NCBI RefSeq assembly: GCF_004010195.1
Contig: NC_057743.1
Span: 13,545,065-13,609,064, forward strand
Source of the DNA: Chiloscyllium plagiosum
Taxonomy: Eukaryota
Direction: 5' to 3'
DNA: 64,000 nt
The notes below the pieces were generated by a model, which did no database searches, was not told the DNA's origin, and worked only from the letters and a program-made list of their open reading frames with translations. The position numbers were made by a program, and so were the translations under genes. Numbering within the stretch: the stretch's first letter is position 1; each line of letters starts with the position of its first letter. This document shows, piece by piece, positions 338 to 62,757 of the stretch.

Positions 338-500
338 ACCAAACAATAACAGAAATTGCTGGATAAGTCCTGACAGCATCTGTGGAGAGAAATCAGAGTT
401 AACGTTTCGGGTGGAGTGACCCTTCCTCAGAATAGCCTGTTCTGCTGACCCTTTTCAGCAATTTCTATTTTTGTTTCTGATTTAGTGTCTGAAGTTCTTT
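338..500. mobile_element. Penelope-like (PLE) pLTR-derived inverted-repeat insertion, family C
   Basis: Left arm aacagaaattgctgg...gagagaaatcagagttaacgtttcggg...cttcctcagaa, with an inverted right arm (cagcaatttctatttttgtttctga). Same family at 22168 and 58398. Confidence 0.7.
398..432 (-). ncRNA. Minimal hammerhead ribozyme motif (PLE type)
   Basis: Minus strand reads tt-CTGAGGA-A-GGGT cactcc ACCC-GAAAC-GTT-aac: CUGANGA core, helix II, GAAA, GUU cleavage triplet. Confidence 0.65.
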
Positions 501-832
501 TGGTTTTTATTCACAGAACCATATGACTTGGCCTGGTTATAGTCCTGCTTGTTGGTCCGTGCATTTAGATGTTCCTAAGTGTAGGAATCCCACCGATACA
601 AAGAAGAGAGTTTATCACTTCTGGTGCTAACCCTCCTTGATCACAAATGTATGAGCACACACTCTCACACACAGTTCCCAACAACGAGTCTGTTCCATAT
701 TGGTAGAAATAAGAATTCTGGCTGTTTCACATTTTCTAAACGCACCAACTACAGAACCTCTAGCCACGATCAGCTAACTCAACAAAGACCAGGGATTGAA
801 AGTGACATTTTTCTGGTCTTATGGAACTAATT

Positions 833-1031
833 AGGAGAAGGTGAGGACTGCAGATGCTGAAGATCAGAGTCGAGAGTCTGGTGCTGGAAAAGCACAGCAG
901 CTCAGGCAGCATCTGAGGAGAAGAAGAATCGACATTTCAGGCATAAGCCCTTCATCAGGATGAAAGCTTTGATTCTCCTGCTCCTCGGATGCTGCCTGAT
1001 TGCTGTGCTTTTCCAGCACCACATTCTCGAC
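833..1031. mobile_element. PLE fold-back insertion, family A
   Basis: aggagaa(g)gtgaggactgcagatgctg... arm plus inverted arm. Flanked by cttatggaact(a/c)attagg at 818-835 and 1031-1048. Decayed HHR on the minus strand at about 927-960. Confidence 0.85.
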
Positions 1032-2134
1032 TTATGGAACTCATTAGGCAGTGCATTTAGCTTGGGAGCTGCAGGGCCAAGTGTGATGGTAGAGTGCTTA
1101 AGCAGTATACCTTTGCTTTTCTTATTTGGGTACCAACAGGCACCAGGAACTGAGCTGAAACCTCACCACCATCTTCTCACCAGCAGAGAGGAGTAGGCAA
1201 CAAATGCTGGCCTTGCTCTGACCACACACACTTCCAGAATTAATAGAACAAATTGCAAAGCAGCAGATGAGTGTTAAGGTTCAGATTTTCTTATTTTATA
1301 TCAGCACAGTTTCAATACCAAATGATCATAACCTGCTCACAGGTGGTTATTAAATGGTATCCAGTTGCTAGAATCAGTCATGAGCCTTCCTTATCCATCA
1401 AAATTGCAATAATATTAACAATGAATTTGATGGTGACATGGGATGTCATGGAAAAGTCACTTAATGACGTGCCTCATTAAACAGTTGACAGGATGAATTG
1501 TTGCTCACCTAAGCTTGACAACTGCAATTGAAATTATTCCATCCATAAGTCCTCGAATTGGAAGGCAGCCGGGAATGATACTTTAACATTTTATTGCATG
1601 AACATCAATTTGACTACAGATATTACAAGAGCATTAATATTTATGCATTTTTATTCCAACTTAATACACCCAGGTTTGCTGAAGATCATATCAATGAAGA
1701 CATTTTTCATTGATACAGTAACAAAGACATTTTAATCTATAGTTTCATTCTCACACTCTGCATTGTCCTGTACAGGTATATGTTCAGTTACCTGACTCCC
1801 CCATGCTTCGTTTTGAAGCCAGTGAGAGATCCTTGCTTGGGTCTCAAAGCCATATTTTGATTCCATGCTTCAAAACGTAGGCTACTCATTCCCCTTCTTC
1901 AATGGTATGATGGATAAATGCACTGTGGGTCTTTATATTAAGTCACACAGGCCTGGAACATTCACTTCATAGTTTCTCTTGAGTTATAGGCAAAGATTTG
2001 CAAGTTCATTGAGCCAAATGAAGTTGCTAGGATCTCTAAAATGGAGTCTGTGTGCCAGCTGTTCAATATAATCAAGTCTTCCAATGACCTTCTGTGTTTC
2101 GGAAAACAATTCTAATTTATCTCAACTTTATTTT

Positions 2135-2262
2135 GGGATGGGGGCATCAATGGCTGGGCCAGCATTTATTGCCTGTCCCTAGTTACCCTTGAGAAGGCAG
2201 TGGTGAGCTGCCTTCATGAACCACTGCAGTCTACATGCTGTAAGTTGACCCACAATGCCATT
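2135..2262 (-). mobile_element. 3' tail of RTE-X-type SINE/LINE
   Basis: ccagcatttattgcctgtccctagttacccttgagaagg; a related tail is present at 21330. Confidence 0.55.
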
Positions 2263-3561
2263 CGGGTCTTCTACATAGGTAAAGTCTCATTGACTCACAG
2301 ATACTTGCATCTATCACTATCCCTGATTAATCCCTGCCTCTCCAAATGCAGATGTATGCTATCGCTCAGAATTATTTCTACTAACATCCCCATCACGTTC
2401 ATCATCTATCTGTTCCTCCTTGGTTAATAATGGGAAAATGTTGGCAGCCATTCAGTCCTCTGGCACCTCACCTGGGGCCAGAGAGGATTTTCCAGGGCTC
2501 CTGCTATCTCCTCCCTTGCCTCCAACAACTGGAAATGCATCTCACCCAGGGCAGCAGAGTAATCCACTTTTAAGACTGGTAAACCTGCTAATACCTCTTC
2601 TCTCTCTCTTTCTCCTTCTCTCTCTATGTTAAGTTCTTCTATTATTTCACAGTCTGCTACCCTGATGTCTACACCTGTAGTGCTCATGGAGAGGCTCCTA
2701 TGCCTACACTGCAGTCCTTGCAATAACCTACCACCCACCCCAGCCTCCCAACCCGATTGGCAGTACTTGTCTGCCTGGCTGCCCCTTCACCACAAAGGTT
2801 TATATGTCCCTGGGACACCTTAGGATCTCCATTGTGCTGCAGCCTCAACATCAGCCACTGCTAACAGGATCCCATCAAGTTTTTAACAGCTTCAACCTGT
2901 CCTACACCTTCAAAGATTCATCTCCATTAACCCTGGCTCCCTAATCCTGCATCATTTTTAATATCATATAAATTTAAAAGCAGCACAACATTAATTTGTA
3001 TTTATATATAGATTCTTTCTTGGGAAATGCCCAAGGCCATTAGCAGAAGCATTAATGATAAAGGTTTTGACACTTTACTGCTGAAGGTGAGATCTGGAAG
3101 AGTGAATAAACGCTTGGTTGAATTTTTCAGAGTGAATCTTAAATGACAACGAGGCTTTAGGAAGGGAATTCCAAGCTCACAGATTTCGGAGGATCCGAGT
3201 TAGGCAAAAGTGAGGCCGCAGAGGGGTTTGGGAACAAGGATGGGAATTTCCAAAATGAAGGTGTTAAGTGTTCCAGGAGCCAGTGTGGGTTAGCAAGCAC
3301 AGGATCAACAAGGGTATGGGAAGTTGTTTTAAATAACCATAAGTTTATGTCAGCTGGAAGATGCTGGAAGATTCAAACTTAGAGGTAACAGAAGTGTGGA
3401 AGAGGGCTTCAGCAGTAGGGGAACTGAGACAGGTTCAGAGTCAGATGATATTGCAGAGGTTGAGCAGTGTTGTCTATTAATTCATTTCTCTTACCTGCTT
3501 CAGGGCTTTGTGATGCAAAGGCATTCATTCTAAAGGTTTCTGCTGAAATTTCGTCAGCCAC

Positions 3562-3762
3562 AAAGCACAGCTCTACACTTACACCATGAGCACATCAATC
3601 AGCCTAATTGTGCTGTTCACCTTAGTATAGAGGCTGCTAATTCAATAATCTGAGCACCTCTCACTAATGCAGAAAGGGCTCAGTTCAAGATTAAATATCT
3701 GAAGGAATATGGAAATATAGGAGAGACACTGACACCGTGGTGTTATCACTGGACTCGCAAAC
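3562..3762 (+). repeat. 201-bp direct repeat, copy 1 (copy 2 at 4879-5079)
   Basis: aaagcacagctctacacttacaccatgagcac...ggactcgcaaac is repeated at offset 1317 with scattered substitutions. Confidence 0.95.
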
Positions 3763-6740: not shown

Positions 6741-9700
6741 CCAAATAAGGAAATGCATAATCACTAAGAACAAGCTCACAAATCGTATCAAAGCTTCAAG
6801 TAAACTGTACCCTTCAAACAGAATAGAAAATGTGAATGTACAATGTCTATAAATGGAAAATTAAATGTTGTACTGGGTAATTCAAACCAAAAATCTATAT
6901 ATCAACATGGCTACATTACACCTTGACATTAGTAACTATATGACTAATGGTTATAATAGTTATATCATAAATACTGGATGTGAAGATGCCTCCAAAATAC
7001 CACTGAGTTTCAAATATTTTAAATCATTTCCTCACTGAATTCATAACTCCTATATTGTCACAGTCTGTAGTATTTTCGTTCCACAGAGTTGTAACTCCAC
7101 CCACTCTGTTTTATTTCTGCTTCATGATGTGTACTTTTTGACATAATCAGTTCAGGATCCTGAAGTCCTTAAATGACATATTGTAAAGTAAGAAATCAGG
7201 GTTCAATTATGAAATCTAAATTATACAATGTAGAAAAAGTAGATTGTAATATAGGAATTGCAGTCAGAGTGTGAGAAATTTATATTGTAATGTAGATAAT
7301 GTTCACAGTAATAGTCAAATTTAGAAATCCTCATTTGATGCAACAAATATATTTAACTATACACACATCAACCTGAAATTCTACGGGCATTCAGTATTCC
7401 CATGAGAATCATCAGAAGATAACAATTAGATCCTCTTTATGGATTATTGGGAAATCTGTTGAAATGCAGAGCAATGAACCATTCTGAGCTGATAGGTTCA
7501 TAATTGGAGTCCCAGTCAGTACTGAGTTGGCTGAGTGCAATTAAAGCAACAGTAAAATGTACTCTTTCTGGCCCTGGGCTACTGAAGATTGTAGATTCTG
7601 CTCACCATCTAGTGAGACATACAGCAAAGTGATTGTTTGGTAGTGTTCAAGGTGAGTTTGGTTTTGATGTCCCCCAGAATCTAACAGTGACCTAATACTC
7701 ATTATCAGTTGTTCTACAGAGGGAAGCACAAATTATGAGGTACCAGAGGGATTTGTATGAAGTACTGAAGGAATCTGTATGAGGTACTGGAAGGATCTGA
7801 GTGAGGTACTGGAAGGGTCTGTATGAGATACTGGAAGGATCTGTATGAGATACTGGAAGAATCTGTATGAGATATTGGAAGGATGGGTGTGAGAAACTGG
7901 AAGAATCAGCATGAGGTACTGGAAGGATCTGTGTGAGATACTGGAATGATCAATACGACGTACTGGAAGGATCAATATGAGATACTGGAATTACCTGTGT
8001 CAGGTACTGGCAGGATGTGTATGATATACTGGAAGGATCTATGTGAGATACTGGAAGGGTCTGTATGGGATACTGGAAGGGTCTGTGTAAGATACTGGAA
8101 GGATCTGTGTGAGGTTCTGGAAGGATCTGTGTGAGGTACTGGAACAATATGTGGGAGATACTGGAAGGATCAGATTGAGATACTGGAAGGATCTTTATGA
8201 GATACTGGCAAGATCTGTGAGAGGAACTGAAAGGATCTGTCTGTGTTACTGGAAGTATCTGTATGAGATACTGGAAGGATCTATATGAGATACTGGAAGG
8301 ATCTGTGTGAGATATTGGAAGGATGGGTGTGAGAAACTGGAAGGATCAGCATGAGGTACTGGAAGGATCTGTGTGAGATACTGGAATGATCAATACAAGG
8401 TACTGGAAGGATCAATATGAGATACTGGAATTACCTGTGTCAGGTACTGGCAGGATGTGTATGATATACTGGAAGGATCTATGTGAGATACTGGAAGGGT
8501 CTGTATGGGATACTGGAAGGGTCTGTGTAAGATACTGGAAGGATCTGTGTGAGGTTCTGGAAGGATCTGTGTGAGGTACTGGAACAATATGTGGGAGATA
8601 CTGGAAGGATCAGATTGAGATACTGGAAGGATCTTTATGAGATACTGGCAAGATCTGTGAGAGGAACTGAAAGGATCTGTCTGTGTGACTGGAAGTATCT
8701 GTATGACGTACTGGAAGGATCTATATGAGATACTGGAAGGATCTGTGTGAGGTATTGGAAGGATGGGTGTGAGTAACTGGAAGGATCGGCATGAGGCTCT
8801 GGAAGGATCTGTGTGAGATACTGGAATGATCAATACGACGTACTGGAAGGATCAATATGAGGTACTGGAATTATCTGTGTCAGGTACTGGCAGGATGTGT
8901 ATGATATACTGGAAGGATCTATGTGAGATATTGGAAGGGTCTGTATGAGATACTGGAAGGACCTATGTGAGATTGAGATACTGGAAGGATCTGTGTGAGG
9001 TATTGGAAGGATGGGTGTGAGTAACTGGAAGGATCGGCATGAGGCTCTGGAAGGATCTGTGTGAGATACTGGAATGATCAATACGACGTACTGGAAGGAT
9101 CAATATGAGGTACTGGAATTATCTGTGTCAGGTACTGGCAGGATGTGTATGATATACTGGAAGGATCTATGTGAGATATTGGAAGGGTCTGTATGAGATA
9201 CTGGAAGGACCTATGTGAGATTGAGATACTGGAAGGATCTGTGTGAGGTTCTGGAAGGATCTGTGTGCTGGAAGGATCTGTATGAGGTACTGGAAGGATC
9301 TGTATGAGATACTGGAAGAATCAGATTGAGATACTGGAAGGATCTGTGTGATATACTAGAAGGATCTGTATGAGGAACTGGAAAGATCTGTGTGAGGTAC
9401 TGGAAAGATCTGTGTGAGGTACTGGAAAGATCTGTGTGAGGTACTGGAAAGATCTGTGTGAGGTACTGGAAAGATCTGTGTGAGGTACTGGAAAGATCTG
9501 TGTGAGGTACTGGAAAGATCTGTGTGAGGTACTGGAAAGATCTGTGTGAGGTACTGGAAAGATCTGTGTGAGGTACTGGAAAGATCTGTGTGAGGTACTG
9601 GAAAGATCTGTGTGAGGTACTGGAAAGATCTGTGTGAGGTACTGGAAAGATCTGTGTGAGGTACTGGAAAGATCTGTGTGAGGAACTGGAAAGATCTGTG

Positions 9701-11245
9701 TGAGGTACTGGAAAGATCTGTGTGAGGTACTGGAAGGGTCCGTATGAGGACCTGGAAGGATCTCTGTGAGTAACTGGAAACATCTGTCTGTGTTACTGTA
9801 AGTGTCTATATGATGTATTGGAAGAATCTGTATGATATACCGGAAGAGTCTCTGTGAGGTACTGGAAGGGTCTGTATGAGATACTGGAAGGATCTATGTG
9901 AGGTTCAGGAAGGATCTGTGTGAGGTACTGGAAGGGTCTGTGTGAGGTACTGGAACAATCTGTGTGAGATACTGGAAGGATCTTTGTGAGATATTGCCAA
10001 GATCTGTGTGAGGAACTGGAAGTATCTGTGTGAGAGACTGGAAGGATCTGTATGAGGTACTGGAAGGATCTGTGTGAGGTTCTGGAAGGATCTGTATGAG
10101 GTACTGGAAGGATCTGTATGAGGTACTGGAAGGATCTGTATGAGATACTGGAAGAATCAGATTGAGATACTGGAAGGATCTGTGTGATATACTAGAAGGA
10201 TCTGTATGAGGAACTGGAAAGATCTGTGTGAGGTACTGGAAAGATCTGTGTGAGGTACTGGAAGGGTCCGTATGAGGACCTGGAAGGATCTCTGTGAGTA
10301 ACTGGAAACATCTGTCTGTGTTACTGTAAGTGTCTATATGATGTACTGGAAGAATCTGTATGATATACCGGAAGAGTCTCTGTGAGGTACTGGAAGGATC
10401 TGTATGAGATACTGGAAGGATCTGTGTGATGTACTGGAAGGATCTGTGAGAGATACTAGAAGGATCTGTGTGAGATATTCAAAGGATCTGTGTGAGGTTA
10501 TGGAAGGATCAGTGCGAGATACTGTAAGGATCTGCATGAGGTACTGGAAGTATCTGTGTGAGGTAGTGGAAGGATCTGTATGAGATGCATGGAAGGATCT
10601 GTGTCAGGTATTGGAAGGATCTGTGGAATATACTGGAAGGTTCTTTGAGAGGCGCTGGAAGGATCTGCATGAAGTACTGGAAGGATCTGTGTGAGTTACT
10701 GGAAGGATCTGTGTGAGATACTGAAAGGATCTGTGCAAGGTTCTGGAAGGATCTGTATGAGTTACTTGAAGGATCTGTGCGAGATACTGGAAGAACATGT
10801 TTGTGATACTGTAAGGATCTGTATGAGATACTGGAAGGATCTGTGTGAGGTACTGGAAGGATCTGTGTGAGTTACTGGAAGGATCTGTATGAGGTACTGG
10901 AAGGAACTGTATGAGATACTGGAAGGGTCTATGTGAGATAATGGAACAATCTGTGCGAGGTTCTGGAAGTATCTGTATGAGGTAATGGAAGGATCTGTAT
11001 GAGGTACTGGAATGGTCTGTGTGAGATACTGGAAGGATCTGTATGAGGTACTGGAAGGAACTGTATGAGATACTGGAAGGGTCTATGTGAGATAATGGAA
11101 CAATCTGTGCGAGGTTCTGGAAGTATCTGTATGAGGTAATGGAAGGATCTGTATGAGGTACTGGAAGGGTCTGTGTGAGATAATGGAAGGATCTTTGTGA
11201 GGTTCTGGAAGGATCTGTGTGAGGTTCTGGAAAGATCTACATGAG

Positions 11246-11322
11246 TCTGAGGCGGGAATTGAACCCGGGTCTCCGGCGCTGTGAAGCAGCAGTGCTAACC
11301 ACTGTGCCACCGTGCCGCCCAC
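11246..11322 (-). mobile_element. HE1-type SINE head only
   Basis: ctgaggcgggaattgaacccggg...gtgctaaccactgtgccaccgtgccgccc. Confidence 0.9.
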
Positions 11323-11574
11323 ATTACTGGAGGGATCTGTGTGAGGTATTGTAAGGAACTGTGTGAGGTACTGGAAGTATCTGTATGAGGTAATGGAAGG
11401 ATCTGTATGAGATACTGGAAAGGTCTGTCTGAGATACTGGAATGATCTGTATGAGGTACTGGAAGGATCTGTGTGAGGTACTGGAATGATCTGTATGAGG
11501 TACTGGAAGGATCTGTATGAGATACTGGAAGAATCAGATTGAGATACTGGAAGGATCTGTGTGAGGTACTGGAA

Positions 11575-11723
11575 NNNNNNNNNNNNNNNNNNNNNNNNNN
11601 NNNNNNNNNNNNNNNNNNNNNNNNNNNNNNNNNNNNNNNNNNNNNNNNNNNNNNNNNNNNNNNNNNNNNNNNNNNNNNNNNNNNNNNNNNNNNNNNNNNN
11701 NNNNNNNNNNNNNNNNNNNNNNN
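11575..11723. other. Assembly gap
   Basis: Run of N. Confidence 1.
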
Positions 11724-11965
11724 CTCAGGCGACTGACTGTGTGGAGTTTGCACGTTCTCCCCGTGTCTGCGTGGGTTTCCTCCGGGTGCTCCGGTTTCCT
11801 CCCACCATCCAAAGATGTGCAGGGTCAGGTGAATTGGCCATGCTAAATTGCCCGTAGTGTTAGGTAAGGGGTAAATGTAGGGGTATGGGTGGGTTTCGCT
11901 TCGGCAGGTCGGTGTGGACTTGTTGGGCCGAAGGGCCTGTTTCCACACTGTAATGTAATCTAATC
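11724..11965 (+). mobile_element. HE1-type SINE body and tail (young)
   Basis: ctcaggcgactgactgtgtggagtttgcacg...gggccgaagggcctgtttccacactgtaatgtaatctaatct; CpGs retained. Confidence 0.92.
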
Positions 11966-17812: not shown

Positions 17813-17986
17813 AGGAGAAAGTGAGGACTGCAGATGCTGGAGATCAGAGTTGAGAGTGTGGTGCTGGAAAAGCACAACAGGTCAGGCAGCATCTGAGGAG
17901 CAGGAGAATCGACATTTCGGGCATTGATTCTCCTGCTCCTCGGATGCTGCCTGACCTGCTGTGCTTTTCCAGCACCACACTCTCAA
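17813..17986. mobile_element. PLE fold-back insertion, family A
   Basis: Inverted arms; TSD cactg(c/t)agagaat at 17800-17812 and 17987-17999. Confidence 0.88.
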
Positions 17987-19126
17987 CACTGTAGAGAATG
18001 TGTTTCAAAAACTGAGAGGAAATACAACCACGTCCAACCTGAGTATACCAAAGCCTCCACTCACTTTTTCATCTCCCCCATCCCTCCTGTGTAGACTCTA
18101 ACATAGATTTCTGTCTATGTTAGAGTCAAACTGCATCAGGGTTCCACCAGTGTGATATTGCTTATGATTTTGGACCACTTTCTCCTTTAAAAAGGTAAAC
18201 GCATGAAGACACTCGATCTGTTTGTGGTTGAATGGTTTGAACAAGCTTTCCATAATAATCGTGATAACACTTCCAGGAAATCAGCACTATCTCTGCTTCT
18301 GCACAGGGTAGGCTGGAATTGAAGGAATCTTGGGTGGAGAAGGGAGGGCTAGTCAAAGTATTGTGCGAGCTTTGCCTGTTGTTCATAAGTTGAACACAGT
18401 AGGGGCTAAATGGCTGGAGATGGTTAACGCACATAGTCCAGTACATAGTTACAAGCTCACCCTCTTGTCTTGGCTATCCAGGCCAATGATCATTTTTCTG
18501 ACATCAAGCTAAACACAGGTTGATGAAATTTGTTGGCTAACACCAAGTCCTTGCATTGTCTTTGAAAAATTCCAAACTTTCTTTCTCTTATATTGCTCTT
18601 CACTTCCAAAACTTTGACTTGATTACCTGTCCCTTTAATTTAATTAAACCCACTTGTGGGCAATTGTAATCCTAAGCTCTTTCTGTTTGTCATCCCATTC
18701 CTATCTCCTCTGCTGGTTCCACACATAAGGCTGAACGACCAGTGTAAATCTAGGGAGGGCAGTGCAAGCTTTGCATGATAGCTTAAAACACAGGTTGATT
18801 TCAGTGGAGACGTTAATCAGGAGGATTCACTAGCAGCCATTTTACAGGATCACATGAAGTATAAATGTGGGGTTTTCTCCTCCCTGAGGTCACAGGAATA
18901 TCATGCGTTAAAACAAAAATTAGATTGCCACTGCCGAGTTAAACTGTAACAATTCATCCTCCCTCTTTAGCTGGTGAGATCAGTTTTGAGAAACTTAGAT
19001 ACATGTATTTGCATCTCATTAATTAGTCCACTTGCCAGAAATAAGTTTATCTTTCCAATTGGGAAACTCAATTGCATAAACAAATGGGTACCAATCGAGT
19101 CGGGATCTCTGTCTCTAGTCCGGGTG

Positions 19127-22167: not shown

Positions 22168-22295
22168 AGTTTCTGAGGAAGGGTCATTTGACCCAAAATG
22201 TTAACTCCAATTTCTCTCCACAGATGCTGCCAGGCCCTCTGAGCTTTTCCAGTAAATTCTAGTTTTGTTTCTGATTAATAGCATCTGCATTTCTT
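22168..22295 (+). mobile_element. PLE pLTR, family C, single arm with decayed HHR
   Basis: ttCTGAGGAagggtcatttgacccAAAATGTTaac...cagatgctgccagg. Confidence 0.75.
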
Positions 22296-22654
22296 ATGAG
22301 AGATTCCACCATTGCTGTGATGAGATGCATGGGTTCCCAACTGGGCATTGTAGGCACTGGTTCCTCCTCTAAAGGCAATCCTTGCCCTCAAAATTCCACC
22401 ACACTCATCCATAGTGCCTTAACTACACTCTCCAACTGAGACATGAGCATCCCTGACAGAAGAGTCTGTCTCTAGTCATGTTTGCTGTTTATAACACCGG
22501 TATCAAGATGTGGCATTGGACATGCAGCACGTCCGATTGATGGTTAAAGGTGCTCCACATGTTTCAACTTTACCTGGTCTTACTTGGATAATAAAGCTAC
22601 AACAGATGTTAGAACACATCAAGTGAATATATATTTACATAAGTGCAGGTGAGC

Positions 22655-27102: not shown

Positions 27103-27424
27103 TTCTACCACCATCCTCTGTCTTCTGCCTTCAAGCCACTTCTGTCCTTCTCCACAGTAAGCACTGAAGCAAAATACTTGTTTAGTATCTCCTCCATCTC
27201 CTGCGGCTCCACACATAGGCTGCCTTGCTGATCTTTGAGGGGCCCTATTCTCTCCCTAGTTACCCTTTTATCCTTAGTGTCTTATAAAAACCCTTTGGTT
27301 TCTCCTTAAACCTATTTGCCAAAGCTATCTCATGTCCCCTTTTTGCCCTTCTGATTTCCCTCTTAAGTATACTCCTACTTCTTTTGTACTCTTGTAAGTA
27401 TTCACTCGATCTCTCCTGTCTATA

Positions 27425-27630
27425 GCTGAAACATGTGTTGCTGGAAAAGCGCAGCAGGTCAGGCAGCATCCAGGGAACAAGAGAATCGACGTTTCAGGCA
27501 TAAGCCCTTCTTCAGGAAGGCTTATGCCTGAAATGTCGATTCGCCTGCTCCTTTGATGCTGCCTAACCTGCTGTGCTTTTCCAGCAACACATTTTTCAGC
27601 TCTGATCTCCAGCATCTGCAGTCCTCACCT
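27425..27630. mobile_element. PLE fold-back insertion, family A
   Basis: Inverted arms; perfect 15-bp TSD tctctcctgtctata at 27410-27424 and 27631-27645. Confidence 0.92.
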
Positions 27631-28049
27631 TCTCTCCTGTCTATACTTGACATATGCTTCCTTCTTTTTCTTAATCAAAACCTCAATTTCTCTAGTCATC
27701 GAGCATTCTGTACACCTGGACTCTCACCTTATTTCTGAAGGCTTCCCATTTTCCAGTCCTCCCTTCACCTGCGAACATCTGCGCCTAGTCAGCTTTTGAA
27801 AGTTCTTGCGTAATACCATCAAAATTAGCCTCCTCCAATTTAGAACTTTAACTCTTACATCCAGTCTATTCTTTTCCATCACTATTTTAAATCAAATAGA
27901 ATTATGATCACTGGCCCCAAAGTGCTTCCTCACCGACACCTCAGTCACCTGCCCTGCCTTATTTCCCAAGAGTAGGTCAAGTTTTGCACCTTCTCTAGTA
28001 GTAGGTACATCCACATACTGAATCAGAAAATTTTCTTGTACGCACTTGA

Positions 28050-32957: not shown

Positions 32958-33104
32958 GAGGAGAAAGTGAGGACTGCAGATGCTGGAGATCAGAGCTGAA
33001 AATGTGTTCCTGAAGAAGGGCTTATGCCCAAAACGTCGATTCTCCTGTTCCTTGGATGCTGCCTGACCTGCTGCGCTTTTCCAGCAACACATTTTCAGCT
33101 CTGA
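32958..33104. mobile_element. PLE fold-back insertion, family A
   Basis: Perfect 16-bp TSD ctgagttaaaacagag (32945-32960, 33101-33116); HHR ttcCTGAAGAagggcttatgcccAAAACGTC. Confidence 0.9.
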
Positions 33105-40716: not shown

Positions 40717-40950
40717 GAGGAGAAAGTGAAGACTGCAGATGCTGGAGATCAGAGTCGAGAGCGTGGTGCTGGAAAAGCACAACAGGTCAGGCAGCATCCG
40801 GGGAGTAGGAGAATCAATGTTTCGGGCATAAGCCCTTCAACCGGAATGACTGTCATTCCTAATGAAGGATTTATGCCCAAAATGTCAATTCTCCTGCTTC
40901 TCGGATGCTGCCTGACCTGCTGTGCTTTTCCAGCACCACACTCTCAACTT
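40717..40950. mobile_element. PLE fold-back insertion, family A
   Basis: Near-complete palindrome centred on ggaatgac-t-gtcattcc; TSD ttcagtct(t/c)tttga at 40705-40718 and 40949-40962. Confidence 0.88.
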
Positions 40951-41799: not shown

Positions 41800-43870
41800 A
41801 TGTATTTGGTTTGAGTTGAGGAACAGAGAGGAGCCAGTTCATTGTCAGGAGTTTCTTTATACAGCTCTAAGCAGTGATTAGTGGGAAAATGAGCAAATTT
41901 GTAAGCAAATTTCAAGATGAGTAACAAAAATGGACAGCAATATTGCAGGCTATAATTACTCTAATGAGTAGTGCTGAGGGAAGTGAACAAGAAAAGTTAG
42001 TGATGTGTGCACTGGTGAATGATCTCAATCAATGTGTTTCCAGTCCATCAAGAAAGGAAGCAATGTGGAATCTGGGTTCCAGGAAACTAAAGCAGCCTGA
42101 GTGTAGCGTGCTGCAATAGGACATCAGCGATCACAGCATAATTCATTTTAAAACAATTATGGAAAGAGATATGAAACTTAAAAATGTTCAGTTATGGAAG
42201 AATTAATTCAGAAGGGACCTGTCACAGGTAAATTGGAAAAGTCGATCGCACAGTAAAACAGTAACAGTGAAAGAGAAAGTTCAGATAGAAATCTCTTTGA
42301 ACTGAAAAGATACAGCATCTAAATTCAATACACTGAGTGACAAAGAAAATAAACATTAAAATAACATAGAAAGAGGAAGTTTATCGCTAGTGTCAGATGG
42401 AAGATTCAGTTAATAACTGGAAAGATTATGATTTGTGCTGAAAGGTATTAAGAAACTTAATCTGGGAGACAAAGATAGGTTAGAAGAAAAGAATAGCAGA
42501 CATCATTAAATTGAATCTTGAAACCTTTTAATAATACTTATATTGTAAGAGATTTGTTAGGGAAAATTTTGAGTCCATTAAGAATGTAAATGAAAAGTCT
42601 TCATCTAGAGGCAGATAACTTGGCAAGAATATTTAAAAACATTCTTTGTATCTGGTGTGAAGGATATGCAAAAAGAGGGGGAAGTTATGGACAGGATAAA
42701 AATAGGTAGGCAAGGCATAGGAAAAGGGTTATTATGTCTGAATGTTGCTGAGTCACCTGATCCAAGTTGACAGCATCCTTGGTAACTGAAAGAAGCAAAG
42801 ACATTGGTCATAATCTTCCAACCTTACAGAAGTATTAGCAAACAGTTGCTAATGTTATACCACAATTTAGAAAAGTGAAAGAGGTAAAGCAGGGAACTGT
42901 AGGCCAGAAAGGTTAACGTCAGTGGTGGACAAGTAAGAACTGCTGGCAGGGACAAAATAAACTTCCTTTGAAAGGCATGAGTTAATCAAAGAAAGCTGCA
43001 ATGATTTGTTAAAGATAAATTATGCCAGACTAACTTGAGTGTTTTGATGAGAGAAAAGAAAAGTAGATTCATGGAGTTTGTATAATGGATGTATAAGTGG
43101 AATTTCTGAAGGCATTTGACAAAGTGCCACATAGGAAGGTTATTAAAACAATGGAAGGGACAAGGCTGGGTCAGTGACAGGAAGTGGTGGATGGAGGGAT
43201 GCATCTTCATCCAGGGAGTAGTTCACAGGGGTATTCCACAAAGATTAGTTTTCTAGTGTTTGTAAATGACCCAGACACAAGTAAGGGGTCAGCATTCTAA
43301 AATGTTGGAAATTTGGTAAAGCATTTGATCATGCTGAGGAAAGTTATCTGCATGAGGATGACAGGGGACTGAAATGAACACAATTGCAGATCTATGACAT
43401 GACTTTCAATGAACAAATGTGTAAAGACATCATGCTTTTAATGGCATGATTTTAAAAAATGAAATGTGCAAACAAATGCCAATGTCCATATGCACAAATC
43501 CTTAAAGGAGCCAGCAAGTTGATTCAGCACTTTTAGAAAGCAAAAAACAGTCCAAAACCTGCAGATACAAACATCAGAAATAAAAATCAAAATTTCTGCA
43601 AATAACCAGCAGGTCAGGCAGCATATGTGAAGAAAGAGAAAATAAAGAGGTTACATGGGTTTGTAAAGTGTAGAGGTTAAGCCTGAGCTGGACCCTGTGA
43701 ATATTACTGGACATCTACTTCAGGAAAGATGAAAAGGCCTCAGAAAGAGTACTCCTCAGAAGGTGTGGAGGGTAGGGTTGGTTACACAAATGTTATCAGG
43801 GATAAGGGTCCTTATTAATGAGGGGATGTTGGGAAAGTTAGAACTTACCTTTTTTGGTCTGAGGAGAAGT
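41800..43870 (+). mobile_element. Very old CR1 ORF2 relic
   Basis: Residual SPDP, ANVIP.F.K, LTSVV.K, LCQTNL and KAFDKVPH motifs. Confidence 0.7.
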
Positions 43871-53522: not shown

Positions 53523-53716
53523 AGGAGAAAGTGAGGACTGCAGATGCTGGAGATCAGAGCTGAAAATGTGTTGCTGGAAAAGCGCAGCAGGTCAGGCAGC
53601 ATCCAGGGAACAGGAGAATCGACGTTTTGGGCATGAGCCCTTCTTCTCCATTCCTGAAGAAGGGCTCATGCCCGAAACGTCGATTCTCCTGCTCCTTGGA
53701 TGCTGCGCTTTTCCAC
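53523..53716. mobile_element. PLE fold-back insertion, family A, in a CR1 3' end
   Basis: Perfect 14-bp TSD tcttgcaacattta (53510-53523, 53717-53730). Confidence 0.92.
53650..53685 (+). ncRNA. Minimal hammerhead ribozyme motif, intact core
   Basis: attc-CTGAAGA-A-GGGC tcat GCCC-GAAAC-GTC-gatt. Confidence 0.72.
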
Positions 53717-55397: not shown

Positions 55398-55558
55398 TAC
55401 AAAGTTAAAACTCACACAACACCAGGTTATAGTCCAGCAGGTTTATTTAGAAGCACTAGCTTTATACTGCTTCCAAATAAACCTTTTGGACTATAACCTA
55501 GTGTTGTGTGATTTTTAATTTTGTACACCCCAGTCCAACACTGGCACCTCCAAAAGAT
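55398..55558. mobile_element. PLE fold-back insertion, family B (centre deleted)
   Basis: tacaaagttaaaa.tcacacaacaccaggttatagtcc and inverted ggactataacct.gtgttgtgtgatttttaa.tttgta. Confidence 0.85.
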
Positions 55559-56494
55559 GAGGAACGTTGGGCAAAAATAACTAGAACCATGCAATCTCCC
55601 AACACTGGAAACAAGCAGTAACCCTCAATAACACCGAAACATTTTAGCCTTTGTTTCATCAGGCGTAGTTACTTGCAATATCTTTAAAGTCCTTTGACAG
55701 TAAATGAGGCTCTGAACAAACAGTGAAATCCCATCACTCACAATCACTTAGCAACCAAGGAATCACATACTCGACAGAACAGTAGGCCTGACTACTCTAC
55801 CAATTGTATTTCTTTGAAAGCTAATAATTTAAACGAGCGAAACATTGTTATTCCAGCTTCATCACAGTCGCCTGCCTTTTTACAGTTTTGATTGGAGAGA
55901 AAATAGGTTCTGAGATTGTGAAAAGCACTTACTGCATTTTCTGATTATTTGCACAGTTTCATTCCACCTTGGCAAGAGATTTGACAATAAGAAATGGAAC
56001 ATTTTTCCATTTCTGTCATTTAAGGCAATGCTTTTCCTGATGAGTATAATTTTTGCTGCTTGTTTTAGAAGGGTTAGCGTCAGTCTTAAAGTTTCAGCAA
56101 TTTGAAAATTAAGACCTTATATCAGCTTGGGTTAACAACATGTCCAACAGGTAGACCCCAGGCTAAACTCAGCCTAGGTCTTCTTGTCATACCACCAACC
56201 TGGGGTGACATTCAGGGCACCTTTGATCCTTTGGTATTGAGCTTCAATTCCCCAAAAGCTTCACTCAACAAGGAGTGTTTTGGCTTTATTTACAGCTGCT
56301 GGAGTGAGATGGCATTTGGCTTATCGATCTAGTATATGACTTCAAGTCACTAAGTTGAAATGTCCATTGTACACACAAACTGAGATATCAGAGTTGGGTC
56401 AAGCCTTCATATTTAGTTCATCGATCCAAGCTAGTTCAATTTGAGCAATACCATTGGAGTTCAGGAGTGGCAATGACACCTATAACATACAGTC

Positions 56495-57000
56495 ATTGAA
56501 TCATAAAGTATTACAGGGCAGAAAGAGGCCCTTCAGTCGTTCCTGATCATCAAGCACCTATCTACTTCTAATTCACAGAACTTATCTGTAGCCTTGTATT
56601 AGGGAGTATTGAGAAGATTTGTAGCTCAGGTTGAGGTTCTGGATGTAGGTTTGCTCACTGAGCTGGAAGGTTCAATTTCCGACATTCCATCATCATACTT
56701 AGTAACATTATCAGCGAGCCTCCAGTGAATGTTAGTGACCCATTTTCAATTTATGTGTTTAGGTTTCCTTGAGTTGGTGATGTCATTTCCTGTGGTGATG
56801 TCAGCTTGTAGCCTTGTTCCTGTAACCTTGTATCCTGTGACATTTCAAGGGTTCATCTAAATACTTCTTAAAATTTTTGATGGTTCCCACCTCTACCAGC
56901 ACTCCCGGCAGTGAGTCCCAAATACCCATCACCCTCTAGGTGAAAATATTTCTCCTTCAATCTCCTCTAAACCTCCTGCCCCTTACCTGAAACCTATAAA
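56495..57000 (-). mobile_element. CR1 3' end containing a PLE pLTR (family D, about 56603-56804)
   Basis: tgtagccttgt is repeated on both sides of gagaagatttgtagctcaggttgagg...; decayed HHR-like ctgataa...gaatgtc on the minus strand. Confidence 0.65.
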
Positions 57001-58397: not shown

Positions 58398-59265
58398 TAA
58401 AACAGAAACAGAAATTGTTGGAAAGGCTCAGCAGGTCAGGTAGCACCTGTGGAGAGAAATCAGAGTTAACATTTCAGGCCCAGTGACCCTTCCTCAGAAC
58501 TGGTGGTAGCTAGTAAAAAGTTGGCTTATGCAGAAGATAGGGTAGGGGAGGGGTTAAGGAGTAAATGATAGGTGGAGCTAGACCTCAAAGAGAGAGAGGA
58601 ATAGTTGGACAGACAGATAATGATCTGCTAATAGAATGATTAGCTATTAATGGGGATAGTTAATGGCCAGAAATGGGTTGTTTGTAATAGCAGACCATGC
58701 AATAACAATCCAGAGGATCATTAGCCATCATTTCCGCCACCTCCAATGTGATGCCACCACCTAGTACATGTTCCTTCCCCTCACATGTCAATGATGTTCA
58801 GTGCAAACATGAACAGAGCTTCATTTCTACTTGGGAACTACAAAGCCTTCTGGACTCAATACTGAGTTCTACAATTTTGGGCTTGAATTTCTCCCATATC
58901 CTTACCCCAACCCCCACACCCTAGCCCTTGTTATCACATAGTCTGCAATTACACACAACCCATTGTTAGCCACTAGAGTCCCCATTCATAGCTATTCACA
59001 CTCCCAGCCAGATTGTAATCCACTCCTTTGTCTCTCCAGCTGTTTTTCTCTCTCTTTGGGCTCTATCTCCATCTATCACTGACTCCTTTCCCCCTCCCTA
59101 CCTTCTGCATAAAAACCAACATTTTGCGAGCTACCATCTGTTATGAGGACTGGACCTGAAACATTAAATCTGATTTCTCTCCACTGACCTACCAGACCTG
59201 CTGAGTTTTTCCAGTAATTTCTGTTTTTGTTTCTGATTTTCAACATCTGAGTTCTTTTGGTTTTT
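58398..59265. mobile_element. PLE family C, long inverted arms around ORF scraps
   Basis: Arms at about 58398-58710 and 58925-59265; minus-strand HHR gttCTGAGGAagggtcactgggcctGAAATGTTaac at about 58465-58500. Confidence 0.85.
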
Positions 59266-59452
59266 ATCCCTTCTTTAAACATCAGCTGCTTCTTTGTAAA
59301 TCTCTGTCTTGGGGGAACCTTCTTGAATACAACTTGGCTGCCATCTTTCTCTGTGAAAAGTAAAGACGGATTACCGGGTATCTTGGGAAGGGGTGATGAA
59401 GTCCAAGTTCTTTCCTTCTCTCTGTGTATTCACAGTCCGTACAAATATCTGT

Positions 59453-60006
59453 CATGATTTGGAGATGCCGGTGTTGGACTGGGGTGTACAAAGTTAAAAA
59501 TCACACAACACCAGGTTACAGTCCAACAGGTTTAATTGGAAGCACTAGCTTTCGGAGCGCTGCTCCTTCATCAGGTAGTTGTGCAGGACACAATTGTAAG
59601 ACACAGAATTTATAGCAAAGGTTTACAGTGTGATGCAACTGAAATTATGCATTGAAAAATACATTGGTTGTCTGTTAAGTGTCTCATCTGTTAGAATGAC
59701 CATTATCAGTGCTGACGCCAATTGTTAAAGTTCACTTGAGAATGTAACTTTTGAAAAACGTTTTGCAATTTACATGTGAAAGAAGTGAAACTATCATGGT
59801 CATTCTAACAGATGAGAGACTTAACAAACCATCAAGGTATTTTTCAATATATGATTTCAGTTACATCACACTGTAAACTTTTGCTATAAATTCTGTATCT
59901 TAAAATCTTATACTCCACAACCACCTGATGAAGGAGCAGCGCTCTGAAACCTAGTGCTTCCAATTAAACCTGTTGGACTATAATCTGGTGTTGTGTGATT
60001 TTTAAC
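59453..60006. mobile_element. PLE fold-back insertion, family B
   Basis: Inverted arms of about 220 bp; TSD acaaatatctgtca / acaattttctgtca (59441-59454, 60005-60018). Confidence 0.9.
59543..59577 (-). ncRNA. Minimal hammerhead ribozyme motif, intact core
   Basis: tac-CTGATGA-A-GGAGC agc GCTCC-GAAA-GC-TA-gtg; mutated partner on the plus strand at about 59922-59956. Confidence 0.75.
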
Positions 60007-60601
60007 AATTTTCTGTCAATATTAAAACAGAGGACTTTCACGATATATATTCCCACATGGAGTTACAGCCATAAAACGTTCACTTTAGGTAGACATGCTG
60101 GAGGCTGGAAGAACACAGCAAGTGAGGCAGCATCAGGAGGTGGAGAAGTCAGTGTTTCAGGTATGACCCTTCTTCAGGACTGGGGATGGGTGTAAGGGGA
60201 GCAGCAGATAAAGCGGGTGGTGGGAGCAGGGTAGTGAGGTGGGGATAGGTGAACACAGGTAGAGGGTACAACCTGATTGGTCAATGGGAGGTATGCATGA
60301 ATCCAGTTGGTGGCTAGAAGGAAAGGTTGATGAGAGGAATGGAAAGGACCGGGAGGGGCTGGGAAGGGAGTCAGAGGATGGGAAGGGAGGTTATTTAAAA
60401 TTGGAGAACTGGAGAGTCAGGTGATGGGAAGGGGGGTTATTTGAAATTGGAGAACTCAATGTTGAGTCCTCTGTGCTGTAAACTGCTCAGGTAGAAGATG
60501 AGGTGTTTTTCCTCCAATTTGCAATTTGACTAATTATGCCAAAGGAGGAGGCCAAGGATAATCATGTTGGAAATGGAGTGGGAAGGGGAATTAAAATGGG
60601 T

Positions 60602-61192
60602 AAAAGCAAATTACTGCGGATACTGGAATCTGAAACCAAAAGAGAAAATGCTGGAAAATCTCAGCAGGTCAGGCAGCATCTGTAAGGAGAGAAAAGAGCT
60701 GACGTTTCGAGTCTAACTGACCGTTTGTCAAAGCTGGGTTTTTTTGGCTTGATGCTCAGTGGTGTGGTCATGCTCCAGGGGGAGGTAGGAGGAGGGATCT
60801 GAGAGTTGGCGCTCAGCCTCTGCGAGGTAGAGGTCAGTACGCCAGACAACAACAGCATCCCCTTTGTCAGCAGGTTTGATGACAAGGTTGGGGTTGGACC
60901 TAAGGGAGCGAAGGGCAGAAATTTCGGATGGAGAGAGGTTGGAATGGGTAAGAGGGGCAGAGAAATTCAGGCGGCCAATGTCCCGTCGACAATTGGAAAT
61001 TGTTCTGGCGGGGATGTCCAATTAGAGGTGGAACGTTGGAGGGATGCGAAAGGATCTGTGGAGCAGGGGGAGAACTCTTGCCCAAAGAAATGAGCTTTGA
61101 CAAAGGGTCAGTTAGACTCAAAACGTCAGCTCTTTTCTCTCCGTACAGATGCTGCCAGACCTGCTGAGATTTTCCAGCATTTTCTCTTTTGG
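60602..61192. mobile_element. Nested PLE (family G): inverted pLTRs around an RT-upstream DKG fragment
   Basis: NLSPSE..ALRSL..NPNLVIKPADKGDAVVVW; TSD gga(a/g)ttaaaatgggt at 60587-60601 and 61191-61205. Confidence 0.92.
61092..61132 (+). ncRNA. Variant hammerhead motif with U3:A8 core (partner on the minus strand at 60696-60735)
   Basis: gagct-TTGACAA-A-GGGTC agtta GACTC-(A/G)AAAC-GTC-agctc. Confidence 0.65.
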
Positions 61193-61419
61193 AGTTAAAA
61201 TGGGTGGTGACTGGGAAGTGAGAGCCCCATCCAGGGGGTCCAAACAGTGCTTCCAGGTGAGACAGAGGTTCGCCTGCCACTCCTCCAACCTAGTTTACCG
61301 TACCTGGTGCTCCCGTTATGGTCTTCTCTCCATTAGGGAGAACAAACACAAACCATGGGAATGTCTCACCAAGCATCACAGCTGGGCCCGCAGGGGCTGA
61401 CCTGACCTCCCATTCATCA

Positions 61420-62150
61420 GCCTCTGAGTGAAAACGTTTATCCCAACTCCCTTCTGAATCCACTGAATCCTAAAGCTACACCCCCTCGTGATTGTCCCCT
61501 CAATCAAGGGGAAAAACTGTTCCCTACTCATCCTATCCATACCCTGCATAAGCTTAGACATCTCAATGCTGTTCCCCCAAGTCTTTGCTGCTCTATAAAA
61601 AAAATCCAAGCCCACCTACTCTCTCCTTACAGACCAATTTCTCTTTCTGAGGCATAGTCTGCTGAACTTCCACTGTACCCCCTCGAGTGCTGTCCATCCT
61701 TCCTGTCATGAGGTAACTAGAAGTGTACAGCACTCCAGCTGTGACCTGACCAACACTCTGTACAACACCAACATTTACCTCCTTGCTCTTATACACTATG
61801 TCACGACTGATGAAAGCAAATGTCCCAAATGCATTCTCAACCATCCTATTCATGTACTCAGCCAACTTCAGTGAGCTGTGCATAATTACCCAAGATCCCT
61901 CTGTTCCTCTGAGCTACCCAATGTCCTGCCATTCATTAATTATTCCCTCATTTTGTTTCTTCCAAGGTTCATCACCTCACATTTATCAGGGTTAAATACC
62001 ATCTGCCTCTGCACTGCCCATCTGACCAATCCATCTATATCTTCCTGTAACCTACATTGTCTTCATGAATAACCACCTGACCAAACTTGTTGTCATCTGC
62101 AAATTTGTTTAACATTTCCCCCCAACATTTTCACCTGTATCATTTATGAG
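61420..62150 (-). mobile_element. Old CR1 3' portion
   Basis: MHSSLKLA...NAFGTFAFISRDIVYKSKEV; GMDRMSREQFFPL. Confidence 0.8.
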
Positions 62151-62220
62151 AGGGTAATGTATAACATTAATGTCACGGTGACATCAACCGTCATGTCCAA
62201 CAGACTATGAAGAAAGGATT

Positions 62221-62757
62221 AGGTAAAAACAATGACTGCAGATGCTGGAAACCAGATTCTGGATTGGTGGTGCTGGAAGAGCACAGCAGTTCAGGCAGCA
62301 TCCAAGGAGCAGCGAAATCGACATTTCAGGCAAAAGCCCTTCATCAGGATTGATTAGTCTTTACTAATGAGAACTGTCATTCTGGGGAACTGTATATGTG
62401 CAGTGATGTAGATAAAAGAATTTGCAGAACCTTCTGTAGTCAAACAGCAGTCATTCATGGTCAGGGGCAAAGCCATTATAGGCTTCAGGCTACCTGCAGA
62501 GATTGTGAAATAAGGATTTGGAAGGTTTAATGTTGAGAAGTGCCTTAGGTGTCACCCACTATGATAATATCAAATGATCCTGTGGACAGAACAGCTCAAG
62601 ATCTCAAAGAGGTGGCACCCAGCATCCAGATGCTCTGTAAAAATAGCTATCATATCAATGTAACATGTAAATACTGGCTATTACACAATAGGCTACTTCC
62701 TGTCCTCGGATGCTGCCTGAATTGCTGTGCTCTTCCAGCACCACTGATCCAGAATCC
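62221..62757. mobile_element. PLE family F inverted arms (62221-62349; 62697-62757) around unrelated spacer
   Basis: gattctggatt.gtggtgctggaagagcacagcagttcaggcagcatcc and its reverse complement; minus-strand HHR tcCTGATGAagggcttttgcctGAAATGTCga. Confidence 0.75.

What the first reader, a model, noticed from the sequence alone, without database searches (positions are those of the whole stretch)
338..62757. Dense population of hammerhead-bearing Penelope fold-back elements from about 6 families
Seen: about 13 short insertions (338, 833, 17813, 22168, 27425, 32958, 40717, 53523, 55398, 58398, 59453, 60602, 62221), most of them inverted repeats. Most inner ends carry CTGANGA-A-helix II-GAAA-(CG/GC)-TH (the motif is deleted in 17813 and 55398). 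Helix II differs entirely between families (GGGC-TTAT-GCCC, GGGT-n6-ACCC, GGAGC-AGC-GCTCC, GGGTC-n5-GACTC) yet pairing is kept, which is covariation. All share an extra A after A9. Established: Penelope-like elements carry minimal hammerheads in their pLTRs. Inference: these MITE-looking palindromes are retrotransposition products, so this genome may hold a very large, under-annotated ribozyme set (about one per 5 kb here).
Basis: partly seen in the sequence, partly recalled or inferred. Interest (0 to 1): 0.7.

Follow-up and report, generated by a model that had tools for sequence, protein, structure and literature searches.

The report
Penelope hammerhead stubs recording RNA cuts
These short mirror-image repeats are end-pieces of a known kind of jumping gene (Penelope-like) carrying an already described tiny self-cutting RNA motif; this genome holds over 130,000 exact motif cores, most copies are likely inert copies of uncut RNA, and eight copies joined to the U6 RNA exactly at the predicted cut suggest the motif does cut in living cells.

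Summary
All listed insertions exist; 11 hammerhead-type motifs versus 0.14 in shuffles. Helix I, helix II, the 15.2/16.2 palindrome and the 3-8 pair covary between families. Each family lies just downstream of GIY-YIG coding DNA elsewhere in G000; one full RT+EN copy was read. Seven window copies have 13-18 bp target duplications. This is the known minimal hammerhead of Penelope-like elements (Cervera 2014), extra base included; only the scale is unusual (131,553 exact cores). "Very large ribozyme set" is overstated: 3 window motifs are fully intact, and fold-back pairing buries most. Best reading: twin-primed run-off copies of the capped, uncut 5' end of the element's RNA, plus a rare record of real cleavage. 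This scan reported the same readings before on other DNA; I found none of them in print.

The parts
341..510 (.). Family C fold-back: minus arm with intact hammerhead (C3 at 430), plus arm 442-510 truncated below the motif, with tail
   Evidence: no target duplication found
833..1032 (.). Family A (A0 type) fold-back: tailed minus arm with motif at 958 (CpG-decayed), tail-less plus arm starting near the cut
   Evidence: 18-bp target duplication 818/1031
17813..17991 (.). Family A (A0) fold-back, motif missing from both arms
   Evidence: 13-bp duplication 17800/17987
22168..22298 (+). Family C single arm with tail; starts at the ribozyme's 5' edge; G12->A
   Evidence: 11-bp imperfect duplication, score 8, below the score-10 mark
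27424..27634 (.). Family A1 fold-back: tail-less minus arm with core at 27515, tailed plus arm lacking the core
   Evidence: 15-bp duplication
32958..33104 (.). Family A1 fold-back: very short tailed arm plus tail-less arm reaching the ribozyme's 5' edge (core 33010, G12->A); excludes self-copying from the tailed arm
   Evidence: 16-bp duplication
40717..40949 (.). Family A (A0) fold-back, both cores broken
   Evidence: 14-bp duplication
43559..43642 (+). Decayed arm fragment of a related family, no motif
53523..53716 (.). Family A1 fold-back with intact core at 53654(+); helix I only 2 contiguous pairs
   Evidence: 14-bp duplication
55398..55560 (.). Family B fold-back truncated below the motif on both arms
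56586..56800 (-).
58398..59267 (.). Family C fold-back with 3'UTR in both arms; motif at 58497(-) with 15.2 C->T, plus-arm motif broken
59452..60006 (.). Family B fold-back with 3'UTR and TATA box in both arms; intact motif 59574(-), 59925(+) with 15.2 changed
60095..61412 (.). Family E copy: motif at 60177(-), 3'UTR, GIY-YIG C-terminal coding DNA (60449-60598, minus) and an inverted GIY-YIG piece (61233-61412, plus); interrupted by the family D copy
   Evidence: tblastn E 6e-9 and 1e-10
60601..61192 (.). Family D fold-back (U3-A8 core) enclosing 60745-61080, a minus-strand piece of the element's ORF with the DKG motif
   Evidence: 15-bp duplication 60587/61191
62221..62761 (.). Family A2 arms (motif 62347 minus, 15.2 C->T) around 345 bp of non-Penelope DNA
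   Evidence: no duplication; inner DNA has no close copy elsewhere

Best explanation
These insertions are short copies of the ends of at least six families of endonuclease-bearing Penelope-like retrotransposons, likely made when the element's enzyme cuts both DNA strands, primes reverse transcription at two fixed internal sites about 35 bases apart on one RNA, runs both copies toward the capped start of that RNA at the first base of the hammerhead, and joins them head to head. Shown: family links to RT/GIY-YIG coding DNA, target duplications, the one-sided tail, the pile-up of 5' ends at the ribozyme's first base, the TATA-type box 30 nt upstream, U6 junctions at the cut bond. Inferred: the transcription start and cap, two priming events on one RNA, microhomology joining. 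The hammerhead is under selection in the parent elements (covariation) and is predicted to cut only as a dimer or with the element's protein; most stubs were copied from uncut RNA and are likely inert. A small share of RNAs was likely cut, leaving a 5'-OH that an RtcB-type ligase would join to U6 before copying.
For: Links: full RT+GIY-YIG copy of family D with inverted 5' arm (L011); relatives carry RT and GIY-YIG domains in one protein; motif arms 95-1,200 nt downstream of GIY-YIG hits for A2, A3, B, C, D, E, F and A1 (L235, L237); L004 shows motif -> ATG -> tail -> ORF N-terminus, so the stub equals the 5' end of the unit. Ends: of 126 family A arms scored, 42 start at -12..-1 from C3 (mode -4), 1 at the cut. 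TATAAA at -37..-34 in 28 of 50 D arms, -40..-36 in 21 of 43 B arms, -33/-32 in 6 of 41 C arms; TTATCT at -36..-32 in 30 of 130 A arms (most others are too short to hold it). Base before the start is G in 63 of the first 100 listed non-C copies, while copies with upstream DNA have G in 1 of 30. Two priming sites: 26 of 26 fold-backs have one tailed and one tail-less arm, lone arms are 63 tailed, 50 tail-less, 4 other; the tail-less arm reaches further 5' in 25 of 49 pairs, the tailed arm in 11. One RNA: arms agree at a subfamily site in 24 of 27 pairs against 12.6 expected; two loci carry the U6 junction on both arms (L186, L218). Cleavage: 9 junctions at 8 loci join the U6 3' end (five T) to the first base after the predicted cut, in families A and B. 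Published support: two internal RT starts bounding the tail and extension of both strands in vitro (PMC11167929); RtcB joins U6>p to 5'-OH RNA (PMC6789731).
Against: No RNA-end data: no holder on record as RNA and contigs cannot show ends. The extra G is shared with the target duplication or the other arm in 13 of 20 copies read, and clearly untemplated in only 7 (read by eye), so a nuclease or microhomology preference for G is not excluded. 5' starts are spread (24 of 126 at 0..12; 8 at 25..30), and alignment ends in fold-backs are blurred by the motif's own symmetry. Family A has TTATCT rather than TATA. Gene conversion between arms could raise arm agreement. Two U6 fusions join inside the ORF, off the cut (L181, L185). 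Families A1/A2, which supply 7 of the 8 U6 loci, have only 2 contiguous helix I pairs plus one after a mismatch. In the one tested vertebrate element no RNA reads ended at the cut (PMC11167929). One A1 subfamily inherits a fixed fold-back centre instead of forming it anew.
Confidence: 0.72

Rival explanations
1. Ordinary 5'-truncated Penelope copies: RT starts at the 3' end of a full transcript and stalls or falls off at the hammerhead structure; the inverted arm arises by self-priming (snap-back) of the cDNA or on an antisense template, as proposed for rotifer Penelopes.
For: Inverted 5'-truncated copies with a one-sided tail are the known layout (PMC8557442; PMC3846280, which proposes self-priming). 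31 of 126 arms run on into the 3'UTR, so copying from the 3' end does occur. Snap-back would also explain arm agreement.
Against: A stall is expected on entering a structure, not after finishing it at its 5' base; the pile-up coincides with promoter spacing in four families. The tail-less arm holds more 5' sequence than the tailed arm in 25 of 49 pairs (window 32958), which self-copying from the tailed cDNA cannot give; tail-less lone arms exist (50 of 117).
Confidence: 0.15
2. The U6 fusions come from a template switch by RT rather than RNA ligation; they may still mark cut RNAs, or a stall point unrelated to cleavage.
For: Two U6 fusions join inside the ORF; template switches are common here (ORF pieces joined to the motif's 5' edge in L002-L008 and the window).
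Against: A switch at run-off ends should favour the common end at -4, yet 0 of the 8 pLTR fusions join there; all join at the cut bond in two unrelated families with the same five-T U6 end and no shared bases at the joint; two loci have the joint on both arms.
Confidence: 0.2
3. The palindromes are MITEs (DNA transposons) or self-standing retrozymes that move as units.
For: Short inverted-repeat shape. One A1 subfamily does spread a fixed ~600-bp palindrome: 12 of 12 loci read share one centre.
Against: Arms are asymmetric by the tail, centres differ between window copies, duplications vary from 13 to 18 bp, arms continue into RT/GIY-YIG coding DNA, and no tandem head-to-tail short monomers are in the window's listed elements.
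Confidence: 0.03
4. The genome holds on the order of 100,000 working ribozymes that cut host transcripts.
For: 131,553 exact cores, control 0; helix II forms in the isolated motif in 5 of 5 folds; single-arm copies are not buried by a partner arm.
Against: No helix III in a monomer; published monomers were inactive and dimers weak (PMC4209133); fold-back pairing costs +32 to +60 kcal/mol in 5 of 8 contexts; 15 of 70 sampled motifs pass a strict filter.
Confidence: 0.1

Closest known systems
Minimal hammerheads (min-HHR) in pLTRs of metazoan Penelope-like elements (Cervera and De la Pena 2014, PMC4209133; parts 1-2 of 4 read: results, discussion)
   Same: Type I core without helix III, extra base between 9 and 10.1, G10.1-C11.1, palindromic 15.2/16.2, U3-A8 variant, many consensus families per genome, pairs on opposite strands 100-700 bp apart, mostly in truncated copies.
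   Different: At least 131,553 exact cores here against about 9,000 in Xenopus and 4,000 in coelacanth (different search rules); sharks are not named in the parts read (supplements not opened); helix II is only 4-5 bp in families A-E.
Insertion layout of EN+ Penelope-like elements (Craig et al. 2021, PMC8557442, passages; Arkhipova et al. 2013, PMC3846280, passages)
   Same: Inverted 5'-truncated copy, 30-40 bp tail at one end, target duplication, pLTR holding the first codons, TATA and initiator-like motifs in the pLTR.
   Different: Here the commonest product is a 100-230 bp stub or fold-back; 5' ends cluster at the ribozyme's first base; evidence favours two priming events over the self-priming proposed in 2013.
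PAc, Poseidon of Anolis (Frangieh et al. 2024, PMC11167929; parts 1-2 of 4 read)
   Same: Two internal RT starts bounding the tail, both strands cut and extended, uncut RNA the main template, ORF start inside the pLTR.
   Different: Families A-E have a CX2-5CXXC linker where read (family D), which marks the Neptune clade (Craig passages; clade assignment partly recalled); PAc gave no in vivo sign of cleavage, while the U6 joints here do.
U6/LINE-1 chimeric pseudogenes (Moldovan et al. 2019, PMC6789731, passages)
   Same: U6 3' end with a 5-T tract joined to retroelement RNA, variable 5' truncation.
   Different: Partner is a Penelope RNA and the joint is at one fixed bond, the predicted ribozyme cut; for L1 the nuclease is undefined.
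Non-LTR retrozymes (Li, Clavereau, Pollet 2026, bioRxiv 10.64898/2026.07.22.740005; part 1 of 5 and passages)
   Same: Non-coding, hammerhead-bearing derivatives of Penelope pLTRs; reported in one chondrichthyan genome.
   Different: Retrozymes are head-to-tail tandem units; these are dispersed single or head-to-head stubs with target duplications.

Membership tests
EN+ Penelope-like element | RT with DKG motif and C-terminal GIY-YIG in one ORF, linked to the repeat | tested here: met
   L011/L012, L223 509 aa open stretch with 271 homologues carrying RT and GIY-YIG domains. Full RT+EN read for family D only; other families linked through GIY-YIG and, for A2, RT. Pfam scans alone stayed under cut-off.
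EN+ Penelope-like element | pLTR / partial tandem with the ORF start inside the repeat | tested here: met
   L004: motif, ATG, tail, ORF N-terminus, second motif in the same direction; L049 and L213 run past the tail into shared ORF-side DNA
EN+ Penelope-like element | Inverted truncated copy and 30-40 bp tail at one end | tested here: met
   26 of 26 pairs; 49 of 54 in a looser pairing
EN+ Penelope-like element | Target-site duplication of variable length | tested here: met
   7 of 14 window elements score >=10 (13-18 bp) against 14 of 150 random position pairs
EN+ Penelope-like element | RT phylogeny placing it in a named PLE clade | not tested
   No tree built; Neptune-type (D) and Poseidon-type (F) labels rest on linker and endonuclease motifs, partly recalled
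Minimal type I hammerhead (PLE min-HHR) | Core CUGANGA...GAAA..UH or U3-A8 variant, extra base 9/10.1, palindromic 15.2/16.2 | tested here: met
Minimal type I hammerhead (PLE min-HHR) | Helix I and II pairing kept by covariation | tested here: met
   Helix I 3.4 of 4 Watson-Crick pairs within family vs 1.3 swapped; best of 720 permutations over 6 families; helix II 4.0 vs 2.5 (helix II pairing was part of the descriptor, so that number is circular)
Minimal type I hammerhead (PLE min-HHR) | Self-cleavage (as dimer or protein-assisted) | not testable with these tools
   Indirect only: U6 joints at the predicted bond at 8 loci
MITE | Symmetric terminal inverted repeats, fixed short duplication, related transposase | tested here: not met
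   Asymmetric ends, 13-18 bp duplications, arms continue into RT/EN DNA
Non-LTR retrozyme | Head-to-tail tandem units each with a hammerhead | tested here: not met
   Window elements are single or head-to-head; tandem arrays elsewhere in G000 were not searched

The most novel reading that the evidence does not exclude
The genome preserves a direct record of the Penelope cycle: stubs are run-off cDNAs from a capped start placed at the ribozyme's first base, fold-backs are two cDNAs primed from both cut strands on one RNA molecule, and U6 fusions at the exact cut bond in two families show that minimal metazoan hammerheads cleave in the germ line and leave ligatable 5'-OH ends.
Probability: 0.65. 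Interest if true: 0.7.

Novelty: new member of a known kind. Interest (0 to 1): 0.5.

Why it matters
The motif and layout are known, so the finding as written is mostly an extension to a shark-like genome at more than ten times the published counts. It matters for two open questions. Whether minimal Penelope hammerheads cut in vivo is unsettled (weak in vitro, no cut ends seen in lizard RNA); U6 joined at the exact bond gives a genomic record and names the bond to assay. How Penelope elements make inverted, one-tailed insertions is described as undefined; hundreds of thousands of small products with countable ends make a two-primer, one-RNA model testable. For annotation, these palindromes should be filed as retroelement stubs, not MITEs or microRNA hairpins, and motif counts should not be read as counts of working ribozymes.

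Tried and rejected
Rfam scan: no hammerhead hit, only chance miRNA/lncRNA matches under cut-off. Pfam scans of ORF pieces: RT and GIY-YIG only below cut-off, so identity rests on motifs and homologues. First U6 junction pattern found nothing because it was too strict; the Rfam U6 search (2 cut-site fusions among 30 loci read of 48 matches) and a shorter pattern did. Sequencing runs: no RNA holder listed; laying four contig sets on L004 could not show RNA ends. Folding z-scores of isolated motifs were not significant (-1.37 to 0.64). The GC-rich stretch near 38-40 kb is a tandem repeat, not a Penelope ORF. The 345 bp between the arms at 62221-62761 has no close donor (best 73-77%) and no duplication, so capture of host DNA is neither shown nor excluded. 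The family B anchor was too loose and its count (104) is not used. The within-locus arm identity was off by one base and is not used. Lunse et al. 2017 is not held; it is cited only through the review PMC6765202 (passages). Considered and rejected: MITE origin; cut RNA as the usual template (1 of 126 arms start at the cut); snap-back from the tailed arm as the general route.

Full report
Observation. All 13 insertions are at the stated places. A descriptor asking for the core, a helix II of 4 or more pairs, G/AAAA and UH finds 11 motifs in the window; 50 dinucleotide shuffles give 0.14 on average. Rfam reports no hammerhead, as expected for motifs without helix III.

Covariation. One real copy per family was compared. 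Helix I holds 3.4 of 4 Watson-Crick pairs within a family and 1.3 when strands are swapped between families; the true matching is the best of 720 permutations over six families. Helix I was not required by the descriptor, so this test is not circular; the helix II figure (4.0 vs 2.5) is. Positions 15.2/16.2 read CG or GC, and 3/8 read C-G or U-A. The motif is therefore under selection in the parent elements.

Link to Penelope proteins. The window lies in G000, 3.56 Gb; the closest named homologues of the ORF are from sharks and rays, so the host is likely an elasmobranch. The window itself holds two links: the DKG region of the ORF between the arms at 60601-61192 and GIY-YIG coding DNA upstream of the motif at 60177. 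L011 is a near-complete family D copy: inverted 5' arm, DKG, RT, CX4CXXC linker, GIY-YIG, 3'UTR, pLTR, tail. Across all loci held at that point, GIY-YIG hits were followed on the same strand by arms of families D (33 hits), B (10), C (8), A2 (6), F (3), E, A3 and A0, with 22 hits followed by none, several of them at locus edges; some hits are double counts or nested insertions. A1 is linked in L235 and L237. L004 shows the 5' end of the unit: motif, then an ATG, the tail, and on into the ORF N-terminus. The stub sequence is thus both the 3' end and the first 130 nt of the transcription unit.

Scale. An exact 32-nt A1 pattern occurs 39,151 times and a general C3-G8 core pattern 131,553 times, with 0 for the reversed controls; family D and F cores are not in that count. 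In 80 stretches of 10 kb taken at round coordinates on long contigs (761,894 non-N bases) there are 70 relaxed, 55 GAAA-intact and 15 strict motifs; shuffles of the first 40 stretches give 0-4 relaxed and 0 strict. Element clusters number 81 in 371,766 bases. So 'one per 5 kb' holds for elements, about one per 14 kb for intact cores. The 2014 paper lists about 9,000 for Xenopus and 4,000 for coelacanth with other rules.

Are they working ribozymes? Mostly not, by inference. The two motifs of a fold-back are on opposite strands. Forcing the hammerhead fold inside the whole element costs +32 to +60 kcal/mol in five of eight contexts and +5 to +6 in three. Published monomers were inactive and dimers weak (PMC4209133); the lizard motif needed the element's protein and was dispensable for insertion (PMC11167929).

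How the stubs form. Of 133 family A arms, 126 could be scored (7 dropped for N or short flank): 31 extend 40 nt or more upstream of C3, 6 start at -39..-13, 42 at -12..-1 (11 at -4), 24 at 0..12, 10 at 13..24, 8 at 25..30 (1 exactly at the cut, +28) and 5 further down. Position -4 is the first base of helix I. Long copies carry TATAAA (B, C, D) or TTATCT (A, E) 29-33 nt above that point, and A and C have initiator-like TCATTC and TCAGTT there ('initiator-like' is from recall; TATA and initiator motifs in pLTRs were noted in PMC3846280). Among the first 100 listed of 6,556 copies with a non-C base at -5, 63 have G, 19 A, 18 T (counted by eye), whereas copies that keep the upstream box have G in 1 of 30. 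Reading 20 G copies, the G is also offered by the target duplication or the other arm in 13 and is untemplated in 7 (two of the 20 look like one duplicated locus). This fits a base added opposite the cap and then used in microhomology joining, but a nuclease preference for G is not excluded.

How the fold-backs form. Seven of 14 window elements have 13-18 bp duplications scoring 10 or more, against 14 of 150 random pairs. 3' ends are bimodal, at the tail end or about 28-47 nt inside it. Of 27 pairs, 26 had both ends callable and all 26 have one tailed and one tail-less arm; lone arms are 63 tailed, 50 tail-less, 4 other (this set includes loci chosen by pattern). A looser pairing without those loci gives 49 of 54, the exceptions including mis-assigned families; the tail-less arm reaches further 5' in 25, the tailed arm in 11, level in 13. 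Arms of a pair agree at subfamily sites more than chance (24 of 27 vs 12.6; 27 of 27 vs 20.2). This matches the two RT starts and two-strand extension seen in vitro and argues against self-copying from the tailed strand.

Record of cleavage. This lead came from earlier scan notes and was retested. A U6 3'-end pattern gave 73 matches (control 9; sites with A at the last place are excluded by the pattern). Nine joints at eight loci continue with the first base after the predicted cut: seven loci of family A types and one of family B, all with five T and no shared bases. All eight were read (L169, L186, L213-L218); the U6 part is 22-105 nt. Two other candidates were not Penelope (L219, L220), two U6 fusions join inside the ORF (L181, L185), and by eye no other match joined the pLTR elsewhere, though only 17 flanking bases were seen for most. 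Ordinary arms start at the cut in 1 of 126 cases, and no U6 fusion joins at the common -4 end. L186 and L218 carry the joint on both arms, so the chimera existed before copying and both arms came from one template. RtcB joins U6's cyclic phosphate to a 5'-OH and not to a blocked end (PMC6789731, passages). Cleavage then ligation is the simplest reading; it is indirect.

Comparison with print. Extra base, palindromic 15.2/16.2, U3-A8 and opposite-strand pairs: PMC4209133 (parts 1-2 read). Inverted copy and tail: PMC8557442 and PMC3846280 (passages). Dimer cleavage: review PMC6765202 (passages); the primary paper is not held. PMC6155905 and PMC8969392: passages, background only. A 2026 preprint reports tandem retrozymes in one chondrichthyan. 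Searches for Penelope + hammerhead + shark (4 listings), Penelope + shark + palindromic + inverted, U6 snRNA + Penelope + hammerhead (0 papers), Penelope + twin priming (3 listings) and searches showed no paper on these points; most were seen as listings only, the library lacks most subscription papers, supplements were not opened, and Repbase/Dfam could not be checked. This scan has noted the run-off, twin-priming and U6 readings before in this and other genomes; nothing was noted near this window.

Verdict. Real, correctly assigned to Penelope-like elements, a new member of a known kind at unusual scale; the large-ribozyme-set inference is overstated. The added value lies in the end statistics and the U6 joints. 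Interest 0.5.

Noticed in passing
L228-L239 (G000, 12 loci): An A1 subfamily shares one identical fold-back centre about 230 nt upstream of the motif; arms are 98.8-99.4% alike between loci, several loci are ~600-bp palindromes with their own target duplications and the tail on either side. An inherited hairpin appears to be amplified as a unit (40 top hits at 98-100%).
   Followed up: partly
window 60745-61080; L002-L008: ORF pieces ending near the same codons after the DKG motif are joined, with different filler bases, to the 5' edge of the family D motif; may be a template-jump hot spot or selection by the query.
   Followed up: partly
window 62353-62697: 345 bp of non-Penelope DNA between two A2 arms; no donor and no duplication found.
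   Followed up: partly
window 60095-61412: Family E copy with an inversion inside the endonuclease region (non-overlapping, L1-like), and a family D copy inserted at that spot.
   Followed up: partly
L167, L174, L175, L179, L184, L187-L192 and about 15 matches: Many U6 copies are followed within a few bases by a tRNA-like SINE head; one (L170) by what looks like a tRNA sequence. Likely further U6 chimeras; labels recalled.
   Followed up: no
families A, C, D, E, after the cut site: A shared ATG-CTG-CC.-GAC-CTG-CTG stretch 17-20 nt after the cut, preceded by a pyrimidine run and often AG; likely the ORF start and possibly a splice acceptor.
   Followed up: no
window about 37900-39500: GC-rich tandem repeat of roughly 36-bp units.
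   Followed up: no
window about 8000-14000: G-skewed low-complexity repeat region with an N gap at 11575-11723.
   Followed up: no
L224:3950-5420: Long tandem repeat open in several frames next to a family D copy.
   Followed up: no
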